This document shows positions 45,337 to 48,300 of a stretch of 64,000 nt of DNA, one piece after another. The stretch lies in the NCBI RefSeq assembly GCF_000026545.1, contig NC_011601.1. The stretch is one strand, 5' to 3'. The position numbers are program-made. The DNA is from Escherichia coli O127:H6 str. E2348/69. Lineage in GTDB: Bacteria > Pseudomonadota > Gammaproteobacteria > Enterobacterales > Enterobacteriaceae. Numbering within the stretch: the first letter of the stretch is position 1; the number at the start of each line of letters is the position of its first letter.

Positions 45337-48300
45337 TCAGTAAAAGCGAATGGAGGGAGATTACACGAGATAAAGAACGCGAGCGACAGTAAATTAGGTG
45401 CGAAAAAAAACCTGCGCATCCGCGCAGGTTGGTGCAAGAGACAGGGTACGAAGAGCGTACCGAATAATCTCACCAATCAATACCTCTGGGATCTTGATTG
45501 TGGTCTGCACGACGACTCTTCGCCAGCGAGAAAACGCAAAGGAATGAAGGGAAATGCAACGAGGTGTGTAAATTGTCGGTTACTGTTACAGATTGATGAC
45601 CGGCAAAAAAAAACCTGCGCATCTGCGCAGGCTGGTGTAATTCATGTGCTCAACCCGAAGTTGACTTCACCTATCAATACCTCTGGGATCACCACTTTAG
45701 CAACCTGAAGCCAAACGCCACCAGCGGTCAATCGCAACAGCGTTTCGCAAAGTGTAACCAAAGGTTTGCAATCTCTTTTTTTGTCTTACTTATTTGCGTT
45801 TGGCTCACATTCCCACGATGAAAACATGTCACCCCTTGAACCAACGGGCGTTTTCCGTAACACTGAAAGAATGTAAGCGTTTACCCACTAAGGTATTTTC
45901 ATGGCGACCATAAAGGATGTAGCCCGACTGGCAGGCGTTTCAGTCGCCACCGTTTCCCGCGTCATTAATAATTCACCCAAAGCCAGCGAAGCTTCCCGGC
46001 TTGCTGTGCATAGTGCAATGGAGTCTCTTAGCTATCACCCGAACGCCAACGCCCGTGCGCTGGCGCAGCAGACCACTGAAACGATCGGTCTGGTCGTTGG
46101 TGATGTTTCCGATCCGTTTTTCGGTGCAATGGTGAAAGCGGTCGAACAGGTGGCTTATCACACTGGTAATTTTTTATTGATTGGCAACGGTTACCACAAC
46201 GAACAAAAAGAGCGTCAGGCCATTGAGCAACTGATCCGCCATCGCTGTGCTGCGCTGGTTGTCCATGCCAAAATGATCCCGGATGCCGATTTAGCCTCGT
46301 TAATGAAACAAATGCCCGGTATGGTGCTGATCAACCGTATCCTGCCTGGCTTTGAAAACCGTTGTATTGCTCTGGACGATCGTTACGGTGCCTGGCTGGC
46401 AACGCGTCATTTAATTCAGCAAGGTCATACCCGCATTGGTTATCTGTGCTCTAACCACTCTATTTCTGACGCCGAAGATCGTCTGCAAGGGTATTACGAT
46501 GCCCTTGCTGAAAGTGGTATTCCGGCCAATGACCGGCTGGTGACATTTGGCGAACCAGACGAAAGCGGCGGCGAACAGGCAATGACCGAGCTTTTGGGAC
46601 GAGGCAGAAATTTCACTGCGGTAGCCTGTTATAACGATTCAATGGCGGCGGGCGCGATGGGCGTGCTCAATGATAATGGTATTGATGTACCGGGTGAGAT
46701 TTCGTTAATTGGCTTTGATGATGTGCTGGTGTCACGCTATGTGCGTCCGCGCCTGACCACCGTGCGTTACCCAATCGTGACGATGGCGACGCAGGCTGCC
46801 GAACTGGCTTTGGCGCTGGCGGATAATCGCCCTCTCCCGGAAATCACTAATGTCTTTAGTCCGACGCTGGTACGTCGCCATTCAGTGTCAACTCCGTCGC
46901 TGGAGGCAAGTCATCATGCAACCAGCGACTAACCGCAGTTAAAGCAATTCCAGCGCCAGTAATTCTTCAATGGTCTGGCGACGGCGAATCAACCGCGCCT
47001 GACCATTATCAAACAGAACTTCTGGTAACAGCGGACGGCTGTTGTAGTTGGATGACATTGATGCGCCATATGCCCCTGTATCATGCAGTACCAGATAATC
47101 ACCCGCCTTCACTTCCGGCAAGGCGCGGGTTTCGACATTTCCCCCTTCCTGCTGGGTAAAGACATCGCCCGATTCACATAACGGCCCGGCGACGACGGTT
47201 TCCACCGTTGGCGCGTGTTCCAGAGAACGACCCTCAGCTGCCAGGGCACTGATATGGTGGTAACTACCGTACATTGCCGGGCGCATCAGATCGTTGAACC
47301 CGGCATCAACCAGCACAAAGTGGCGGCTACCCATTTGTTTGACGCTCCGCACTTGAGTAATTAATACGCCAGCCTGCGCTACCAGAAAGCGACCCGGTTC
47401 AATTTCCAGTTTCACAGGATGGCCCAAATGGCGGGCGATTTGCTCACGCGCGGCATTCCACAGACCATAATAATGTTCGGTATCAACCGCCTCTTCACCC
47501 TGTTGATAAGGAATAGAAAGCCCACCGCCCGCAGAAATAGCCTGTAAATCCTGACCGAACTCGAGGACCTGACGCACCATAGCACCACATACCTGTTCCA
47601 GATGGGCATAATCGACGCCAGAACCAATGTGCATGTGAATGCCGACCAGCTGTAGATGATGACGTTGTATCACGTCCAGTGCGGCGGGCAGATCGGTGTA
47701 CCAGATACCGTGCTTGCTGTTTTCGCCACCGGTATTGGTTTTTTGGCTATGCCCGTGACCAAACCCCGGATTAACACGCAGCCATACCCGATGCCCTGGA
47801 GAAACCTGACCCAGTTGGTCGAGCATATCAACAGAACCCGCATTCACCGGAATTTGCAATTCACTGACGCGTTCAAGCGTCGCCTGATCGATAACATCTG
47901 CCGTAAAAACAATATCATCGGGGTGCGTTTGCGGATTGTAACCCGCCGCCAGTGCACGCTCTATTTCGCCTAACGAGACGGAATCCACTTTTACGCCCTG
48001 CTCACGCATTAAGCGCAAAATATGAATATTGGAACAGGCTTTCTGTGCAAAGCGCACCACATCAAACTGTTTCAGCGCGGCAATCTGCCGACGAATAATT
48101 TGCGCATCGTAGACCCACACCGGGCAGCCAAATTCTGCGGGCAAACGCAGCAGATTTTCGGCGGTGAGATCGGTATCAGTGCTGAACAGTGAATGTGGCA
48201 TAACAAACTCCAGATAAGTGCTTTTTTATGATTACGCCACATCATAAAAAGAATAAAAAATATCGATTTATGTCGAGTCTATGCAAAAATGATATGGATT

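What the first reader, a model, noticed from the sequence alone, without database searches (positions are those of the whole stretch)
45403..45687. Tandem paralogous sRNAs OmrA and OmrB between aas and galR
Two about 85-nt RNAs on the minus strand share nearly identical 5' ends (CCCAGAGGTATTGAT) and 3' terminators but differ centrally. They are easily missed by ORF-based annotation and explain most of the 585-bp non-coding gap.
Basis: partly seen in the sequence, partly recalled or inferred. Interest (0 to 1): 0.3.

Follow-up and report, generated by a model that had tools for sequence, protein, structure and literature searches.

The report
Known sRNA pair OmrA and OmrB
The two repeated elements are the well-studied E. 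coli regulatory small RNAs OmrA and OmrB, sitting in their usual place between the aas and galR genes, so the finding is correct but ordinary.

Summary
The observation and the interpretation are both confirmed, and the feature is already known.

- **Family match:** Rfam family RF00079 (OmrA-B) matches full length on the minus strand at 45403-45490 (96.6 bits) and 45606-45687 (86.1 bits).
- **Identity:** The 585-bp aas-galR gap matches E. coli K-12 MG1655 except for two SNPs near galR and one extra T in the OmrB terminator. In MG1655 the same positions are annotated omrA (b4444, 88 nt, next to aas) and omrB (b4445, 82 nt, next to galR). So 45403-45490 is OmrA and 45606-45687 is OmrB.
- **Repeat:** The copies share 20 of their first 21 nt and 32 of their last 35 nt. 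Their centres cannot be aligned.
- **Conservation:** Homologues in 19 Enterobacterales loci keep the terminator helix through compensatory changes.
- **Mechanism (from published work):** These are Hfq-dependent sRNAs transcribed from OmpR-activated promoters. Their single-stranded 5' ends pair with mRNAs such as ompT, cirA and ompR.
- **One overstatement:** The RNAs are 170 nt, 29% of the gap. "Most of the gap" holds only if the promoters are counted (399 bp, 68%).
- **Side finding:** 16 of 5,426 complete E. coli genomes appear to have collapsed the pair to one gene.

The parts
45403..45490 (-). OmrA small RNA (88 nt), the copy next to aas
   Evidence: Rfam RF00079 at 96.6 bits, model positions 1-87 of 87. 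Identical to MG1655 omrA b4444.
45606..45687 (-). OmrB small RNA (82 nt, or 83 if the extra T at 45605 is transcribed), the copy next to galR
   Evidence: Rfam RF00079 at 86.1 bits, full length. Identical to MG1655 omrB b4445 apart from a 9-T rather than 8-T tail.
45470..45490 (-). OmrA 5' end, the single-stranded target-pairing region (nt 1-21)
   Evidence: 20/21 identical to OmrB. Nt 1-15 are unpaired in the OmrA fold, and the Rfam consensus and the alignment fold leave this 5' end unpaired. Its published role in pairing is in PMC2588501.
45667..45687 (-). OmrB 5' end, the target-pairing region (nt 1-21)
   Evidence: Same evidence as for OmrA. In the single-sequence fold only nt 1-6 are fully free.
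45403..45430 (-). OmrA intrinsic terminator: 9-pair hairpin (45409-45430) and 8-U tail
   Evidence: Terminator scan. The 8-pair helix core is 100% paired in 27 distinct homologues, with 3 compensatory pairs.
45605..45633 (-). OmrB intrinsic terminator: 9-pair hairpin (45612-45633) and 9-T run
   Evidence: Terminator scan, covariation, and the extra T relative to K-12.
45491..45604 (-). omrA promoter region (-114 to -1). It fills the spacer between the two RNAs apart from the single T at 45605. The -10 hexamer CACAAT is at 45497-45502, with C at -12.
   Evidence: Conserved boxes in 9 species. The -12C was read directly from the sequence. OmpR-P activation of the -114..+50 fragment and sigma-S dependence are published (PMC5175337, PMC12692685).
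45688..45801 (-). omrB promoter region (-114 to -1). The -10 hexamer TAAAGT is at 45694-45699, with T at -12. The box TTTGGTTACA is at 45753-45762 (-75 to -66).
   Evidence: Conserved boxes in 16 loci. T-75 and A-68, the residues mutated in PMC13425233, are present at 45762 and 45755. The same 10-mer occurs upstream of ompF.
43156..45315 (-). aas, the flanking gene downstream of OmrA on the same strand
   Evidence: 719-aa ORF, annotated aas in records that are 100% identical.
45901..46932 (+). galR, the divergent flanking gene
   Evidence: 343-aa ORF, annotated galR.

Best explanation
These are omrA and omrB, two adjacent paralogous genes. Each is its own transcription unit and makes a trans-acting, Hfq-binding regulatory small RNA. 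Shown here: family membership, identity with the characterised K-12 genes, the shared 5' and 3' ends, the terminators, the conserved promoter boxes, and complementarity of the 5' end to ompT and ompR mRNAs. Taken from published experiments on identical sequences: phosphorylated OmpR (EnvZ-OmpR two-component system) activates both promoters. omrA also depends on sigma-S because its -10 element has C at -12. omrB has T at -12 and responds to multicopy RstA-RstB. The conserved single-stranded 5' end pairs, with the help of Hfq, near the translation start of target mRNAs (ompT, cirA, fecA, fepA, csgD, flhDC, dgcM, btuB, flgM). This blocks translation and, for ompT and cirA, leads to RNase E-dependent decay. 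Pairing with the ompR-envZ mRNA closes a negative feedback loop on the sRNAs' own activator. The divergent centres and promoters let the two copies respond to different signals and reach some different targets. Inferred only: that this particular strain expresses both RNAs in the same way.
For: Family and identity:
- Rfam RF00079 full-length hits at 96.6 and 86.1 bits against a gathering score of 40. They remain the top hits in a permissive scan.
- The 585-bp gap equals MG1655 except for 2 SNPs and 1 extra T, and MG1655 annotates omrA and omrB at the corresponding positions.

Repeat and structure:
- The shared 15-mer is found twice against 0.04 expected. Direct repeats are 24 nt at 96% and 38 nt at 89%.
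- Both copies have terminators. The OmrA fold leaves nt 1-15 unpaired and the OmrB fold leaves nt 1-6 unpaired; z = -2.7 and -2.9.
- There are 27 further RF00079 hits in 19 Enterobacterales loci.
- In the 29-sequence alignment the terminator is 100% paired, with compensatory changes at 3 pairs. The GGUG/CACC helix is invariant. Versions of the structure slid by 1-3 columns show no compensatory changes.

Promoters:
- No sigma-70 consensus promoter was found, as expected for activator-dependent promoters.
- Conserved upstream boxes are present.
- -12C in omrA against -12T in omrB, T-75 and A-68 in place, and a 10-mer shared with the ompF upstream region.

Targets:
- 5'-end duplexes with ompT reach -22.0 and -20.2 kcal/mol (4 and 8 of 500 shuffles as good). 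With ompR they reach -22.1 and -19.6 kcal/mol (11 and 31 of 500).

Literature: PMC2588501, PMC5175337, PMC12692685, PMC13425233.
Against: Nothing in the sequence argues against it. The predicted duplex with cirA is not better than shuffles (128 and 97 of 500); the published pairing there is only about 9 nt. The invariance of the 5' 15-mer in my alignment is partly circular, because the homologues were collected by exact match to it.
Confidence: 0.97

Rival explanations
1. The elements are cis-acting leaders or attenuators of the downstream gene aas. They lie on the same strand, and the OmrA 3' end is 87 nt from the aas start codon. On this reading they would control read-through rather than make free-standing RNAs.
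For: Same strand and close proximity to aas. Weak sub-threshold Rfam matches to Leu_leader, at 27.8 and 23.2 bits against a gathering score of 50.
Against: The Leu_leader scores are far below threshold and overlap the much stronger OmrA-B hits. Both elements end in strong terminators with 8-9 U. The conserved part is the 5' end, not a leader peptide or an antiterminator. In Pantoea a 2-kb gene separates the two copies, so at least one copy there is not adjacent to aas. The published RNAs are discrete and act in trans (PMC2588501).
Confidence: 0.01
2. The region encodes small proteins. ORFs of 38-50 codons overlap the elements on the minus strand (45394-45510, 45470-45622, 45642-45761).
For: Such ORFs are in the mechanical ORF list.
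Against: They start with GTG or TTG, or they span promoter and RNA. Across species the central region varies by insertions and deletions that are not multiples of three, while the base-paired columns covary. The conservation pattern (5' end, helix, terminator) is that of an RNA.
Confidence: 0.01
3. The elements are a chance or selfish repeat, such as duplicated terminators or a REP-like element, with no regulatory role.
For: The most similar parts include the terminators.
Against: The 5' 15-mer occurs only at these two sites in the window. The pair is kept in 5,371 of 5,426 E. coli genomes and across Enterobacterales with covariation. Each copy has its own conserved promoter.
Confidence: 0.01

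Closest known systems
OmrA / OmrB (formerly RygA / RygB; Rfam RF00079; E. coli K-12 b4444 / b4445)
   Same: Everything that could be tested is the same: sequence, lengths of 88 and 82 nt, strand, position between aas and galR, the 5' seed, the terminators and the promoters.
   Different: One extra T in the OmrB terminator tail (9 against 8) and two SNPs upstream of galR, outside the omrB promoter fragment. The 9-T form is also found in many other E. coli, including O157:H7, O25b:H4 and Nissle 1917.
MicF and MicC, other sRNAs of the EnvZ-OmpR regulon (from established knowledge)
   Same: They are Hfq-dependent base-pairing sRNAs linked to OmpR that repress outer-membrane protein synthesis. micF lies next to ompC.
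   Different: The sequences and families are unrelated. They are single-copy, and they do not use the CCCAGAGG 5' seed.
Other sibling sRNA sets such as Qrr1-4, PrrF1/2, GlmY/GlmZ and RyhB paralogues (from established knowledge)
   Same: They are duplicated sRNAs with a shared pairing region and diverged promoters, giving partly redundant and partly specific regulation.
   Different: They belong to different families, regulators and hosts. OmrA and OmrB are tandem, about 200 bp apart, and feed back on their own activator OmpR.

Membership tests
Rfam RF00079 OmrA-B | Covariance-model score at or above the curated gathering score (40 bits), full-length match | tested here: met
   96.6 bits (45403-45490) and 86.1 bits (45606-45687), model positions 1-87 of 87, not truncated.
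Rfam RF00079 OmrA-B | Conserved 5' end CCCAGAGGUAUUGAU starting at +1 | tested here: met
   An exact 15-mer starts both copies. The first 21 nt are 20/21 identical. It is unpaired in the Rfam consensus structure and in the alignment fold.
Rfam RF00079 OmrA-B | GGUG...CACC helix enclosing a variable hairpin, followed by a Rho-independent terminator with a poly-U tail | tested here: met
   Single-sequence folds (the OmrA fold shows the GGUG/CACC helix, the OmrB fold pairs differently), terminator scan, and a 29-sequence alignment in which the GGUG/CACC helix is invariant and the terminator is 100% paired with 3 compensatory pairs. Covariation in the central hairpin was not tested because the alignment is unreliable there.
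E. coli omrA / omrB genes | [quoted passage not shown] | tested here: met
   ORFs and annotated records. The offsets from aas are identical to MG1655.
E. coli omrA / omrB genes | Own promoters activated by OmpR-P; omrA with -12C (sigma-S), omrB with -12T | tested here: met
   This was tested at the sequence level only. The -114..-1 regions are identical to K-12. The -12C and -12T, and T-75 and A-68, are present. The boxes are conserved across species. Activation itself is published for the identical sequence (PMC5175337, PMC12692685) and was not measured here.
Hfq-dependent base-pairing sRNAs | Binding to Hfq and Hfq-dependent action | not testable with these tools
   Only the sequence hallmarks are visible: a terminator hairpin with 8-9 U. 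Binding is published (PMC2588501).
Hfq-dependent base-pairing sRNAs | Complementarity of the seed to validated target mRNAs near their translation start | tested here: met
   Duplexes with ompT and ompR are better than nearly all shuffles: 4-31 of 500 shuffles do as well. The duplex with cirA is not distinguishable from shuffles, as expected for a short pairing.

The most novel reading that the evidence does not exclude
The window itself holds the standard two-gene locus. The least ordinary reading the data allow is that this tandem pair is an actively recombining duplicate within E. coli. Seven of 5,426 complete genomes have a 203-bp deletion through the shared terminator, leaving OmrB only. 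Nine have a junction that puts the OmrA transcript behind the omrB promoter, a 197-bp deletion through the shared 5' repeat. Such strains would be natural single-copy and promoter-swap variants, in which OmrA has lost its sigma-S-dependent promoter. They mirror the single-copy and chimeric loci described between species in PMC13425233. I did not check whether this within-species polymorphism has been reported.
Probability: 0.5. Interest if true: 0.25.

Novelty: already known. Interest (0 to 1): 0.07.

Why it matters
The finding matters little as a discovery. OmrA and OmrB have been known since 2001 under earlier names and are the subject of many papers, including reviews and target studies up to 2026.

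Its practical value is for annotation. The standard RefSeq pipeline leaves these two genes unmarked in the E. coli records examined, so a scan that recovers them is working correctly.

The side observation has modest value. Rare E. coli isolates appear to have collapsed the pair to OmrB alone or to an omrB-promoter/OmrA chimera. These offer natural material for the open question of why both copies are retained.

Tried and rejected
- **Sigma-70 promoter scan of 45250-45950:** none found. I read this as consistent with weak, activator-dependent promoters, not as absence of promoters.
- **Exact 15-mer scan of genome contigs:** most of the listed loci are in unrelated phyla. My own arithmetic gives roughly 550 chance matches for a 15-mer in 298 Gb on both strands. 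Only Enterobacterales loci confirmed by Rfam were used. Because collection required the exact 15-mer, its invariance in the alignment is not independent evidence.
- **Covariation in the central hairpin:** not tested. MAFFT cannot align the divergent centres reliably.
- **cirA duplex prediction:** not better than shuffles. The published pairing is only about 9 nt with a bulge, too short for this test.
- **Permissive Rfam scan of the gap:** only sub-threshold matches besides OmrA-B (Leu_leader, MicX, SgrS, TeloSII_ncR49). All are far below their gathering scores, and all overlap the Omr genes or the omrB promoter.
- **Chimera junction count:** the '80% covered' figure is inflated because BLAST pieces from normal genomes were joined. 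Only the nine single-piece 100% matches were counted, and only one of them was checked by gap length.
- **About 36 further E. coli genomes with under 80% coverage of the 285-bp span:** not examined.

Full report
**Observation.** I read the minus strand of 45100-46000.
- Two elements begin with CCCAGAGGTATTGAT, at 45490 and 45687. Each ends in a G+C-rich hairpin followed by a T run, at 45403 and 45606.
- The 15-mer occurs only at these two sites in the window, even with two mismatches allowed. Shuffles give 0.04.
- The repeat finder reports a 24-nt direct repeat at 96% identity over the 5' ends and a 38-nt repeat at 89% over the 3' ends. The spacings are 197 and 203 bp.
- By direct count, the first 21 nt are 20/21 identical and the last 35 nt are 32/35 identical. 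The centres, 32 and 26 nt long, do not align.
- The flanking ORFs are a 719-aa ORF at 43156-45315 (minus) and a 343-aa ORF at 45901-46932 (plus).

**Identity.**
- Both hits are full length, on the minus strand, against a gathering score of 40.
- A 701-bp query across the gap is 100% identical to E. coli Nissle 1917, ATCC 25922, ABU 83972 and others, with aas and galR annotated on either side.
- In K-12 MG1655 the same interval is annotated omrA (b4444, 88 nt, adjacent to aas) and omrB (b4445, 82 nt, adjacent to galR).
- The window's gap differs from MG1655 by two SNPs near galR (45829 and 45827) and one extra T in the OmrB terminator tail.
- So 45403-45490 is OmrA and 45606-45687 is OmrB.

**Structure and conservation.**
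- Both RNAs fold better than their shuffles, with z = -2.68 and -2.91. The OmrA fold leaves nt 1-15 unpaired and closes the GGUG/CACC helix. The OmrB fold leaves only nt 1-6 free and pairs differently. Both end in a terminator hairpin.
- A scan of one genome per species for the 15-mer returned many chance hits in unrelated phyla plus hits in Enterobacterales.
- Rfam confirmed 27 OmrA-B genes in 19 Enterobacterales loci, as one or two copies per locus.
- In the 29-sequence alignment the terminator helix is paired in 100% of cells, with compensatory changes at three pairs (G-C to A-U in 8 sequences, U-A to C-G in 2, C-G to U-A in 2).
- The GGUG/CACC helix never varies. Structures slid by 1-3 columns show no compensatory changes.
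- The invariance of the 5' 15-mer is partly circular, since it was the search key.

**Promoters.**
- No sigma-70 consensus promoter is found in the gap. This fits weak, activator-dependent promoters.
- Reading back from the two +1 positions, omrA has CACAAT at -12 to -7, with C at -12. omrB has TAAAGT, with T at -12. This is exactly the difference reported to make omrA sigma-S-dependent and omrB not (PMC12692685).
- Alignments of 120 nt upstream show conserved boxes. For omrB the boxes are AAACCTTTGGTTACACTTTGCG and GCTGTTGCGATTG.CCGCTGG, in 16 loci. For omrA they are CTGTAACAGTAA, GTTGCATTT and TTCATTCCTTTGCGTTTTC..GCTGG, in 9 loci.
- The two promoters share a spaced core (GTT[A/G]CA...TTGCG.TT...CGCTGG) at the same distance from +1. 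I infer from this that the ancestral duplication of about 200 bp included the promoter.
- T-75 and A-68 of the omrB promoter are present at 45762 and 45755. Mutating these residues abolishes activation by multicopy RstAB and strongly reduces activation by OmpR (PMC13425233).
- The 10-mer TTTGGTTACA at -75 to -66 also occurs upstream of ompF. From memory, that is within a known OmpR site; I did not test this.
- OmpR-P activates the -114..+50 fragments of both promoters in vitro, and a -60 truncation of the omrA promoter is not activated (PMC5175337). Those fragments are identical in this window.
- The -114 position of omrA is 45604, two bases past the annotated 3' end of OmrB (45606). The spacer between the RNAs is therefore essentially all omrA promoter.

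**Mechanism.** The following is published for identical sequences.
- Both RNAs bind Hfq. Nucleotides 2-10 of the 5' end pair with cirA, and nucleotides 1-33 of OmrA (1-32 of OmrB) pair with ompT around the start codon. Repression needs Hfq and RNase E.
- A 5'-end mutation abolishes control of all targets tested, and pairing with the ompR 5' UTR gives negative feedback (PMC2588501, PMC5175337).
- As a check, I computed duplexes between the first 30 nt of each RNA and the K-12 target regions:

| Target | OmrA (kcal/mol) | OmrB (kcal/mol) | Shuffles at least as good, of 500 |
|---|---|---|---|
| ompT | -22.0 | -20.2 | 4 and 8 |
| ompR | -22.1 | -19.6 | 11 and 31 |
| cirA | -16.4 | -16.1 | 128 and 97 (not distinguishable) |

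- The cirA result is expected for a 9-nt pairing.

**Rival readings.**
- *An aas leader or attenuator.* This rests only on sub-threshold Leu_leader matches, at 27.8 and 23.2 bits against a gathering score of 50. The strong terminators, and Pantoea loci where the copies are 2 kb apart, argue against it.
- *Small ORFs.* These overlap the elements, but the centre varies by non-triplet indels while paired columns covary.
- *A functionless repeat.* Conservation excludes this. 5,371 of 5,426 E. coli genomes keep at least 80% of the 285-bp span.

**One correction to the finding.** The RNAs account for 170 of 585 bp (29%) and the quoted span for 285 bp (49%). With both promoters the unit 45403-45801 covers 399 bp (68%). 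The remainder is the aas leader (45316-45402) and the galR promoter side (45802-45900).

**Things seen along the way.**
- RefSeq/PGAP records generally list no feature under omrA and omrB, whereas MG1655 does.
- Seven E. coli genomes carry a 203-bp deletion whose junction lies in the shared terminator, leaving only OmrB.
- Nine carry a junction that joins the omrB promoter to the OmrA body. One was checked and has a 388-bp gap, which is 585 minus 197.
- Enterobacter sp. BIGb0383 has a comparable chimera as its single copy. This kind of chimera between species is described in PMC13425233.
- Siccibacter colletis has a single copy with an omrA-type promoter and transcript. This seems to be an exception to that paper's statement that the omrB promoter is always the one retained.

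**Verdict.** This is an already known pair of sRNAs in its canonical place, so interest is low.

Noticed in passing
window 45403-45687, compared with E. coli RefSeq records such as L001: RefSeq/PGAP annotation of Nissle 1917, and of every other listed complete E. coli genome, shows no feature under omrA and omrB. The curated MG1655 record annotates both.
   Followed up: partly
L126 (NZ_OZ039818.1) 1114-1495, and hits H39-H45: Seven of 5,426 complete E. coli genomes have a 203-bp deletion with its junction inside the shared terminator. It removes omrA and its promoter and leaves OmrB only, with an aas-galR gap of 382 bp.
   Followed up: yes
L127 (NZ_CP101233.1) 410-797, and hits H84-H92: Nine E. 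coli genomes match a chimeric junction (omrB promoter plus OmrA body) in one piece at 100%. The one checked has a 388-bp gap, which is 585 minus 197, consistent with recombination in the shared 5' repeat. Assembly collapse of the repeat was not excluded.
   Followed up: partly
L080 (Siccibacter colletis) 4050-4290, minus strand: There is a single Omr gene between galR and aas, with an OmrA-like transcript and an omrA-type promoter (TGTAACAGTAA, GTTGCA, -10 CCACAAT). This appears to contradict the statement in PMC13425233 that single-copy loci always keep the omrB promoter.
   Followed up: partly
L030 (Pantoea stewartii) 2747-4879; also L059 (Pantoea MAG): The two Omr copies are about 2.04 kb apart with a 579-aa ORF (2936-4675, plus strand) between them. 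By eye it resembles a penicillin-binding transpeptidase; this was not tested.
   Followed up: no
window 45605-45613, 45827 and 45829: These are the only differences from K-12 MG1655 in the gap: a 9-T rather than 8-T tail on the OmrB terminator, and two SNPs about 70 bp upstream of galR. The 9-T form also occurs in the O157:H7, O25b:H4 and Nissle 1917 genomes.
   Followed up: partly
window 6645-6850 (+): GcvB small RNA, Rfam RF00022 at 199 bits, full length.
   Followed up: no
window 11174-11470 (+): Three tandem tRNA-Met (CAT) genes at a 110-bp period.
   Followed up: no
window 58254-58327 (-): tRNA-Gly (CCC).
   Followed up: no
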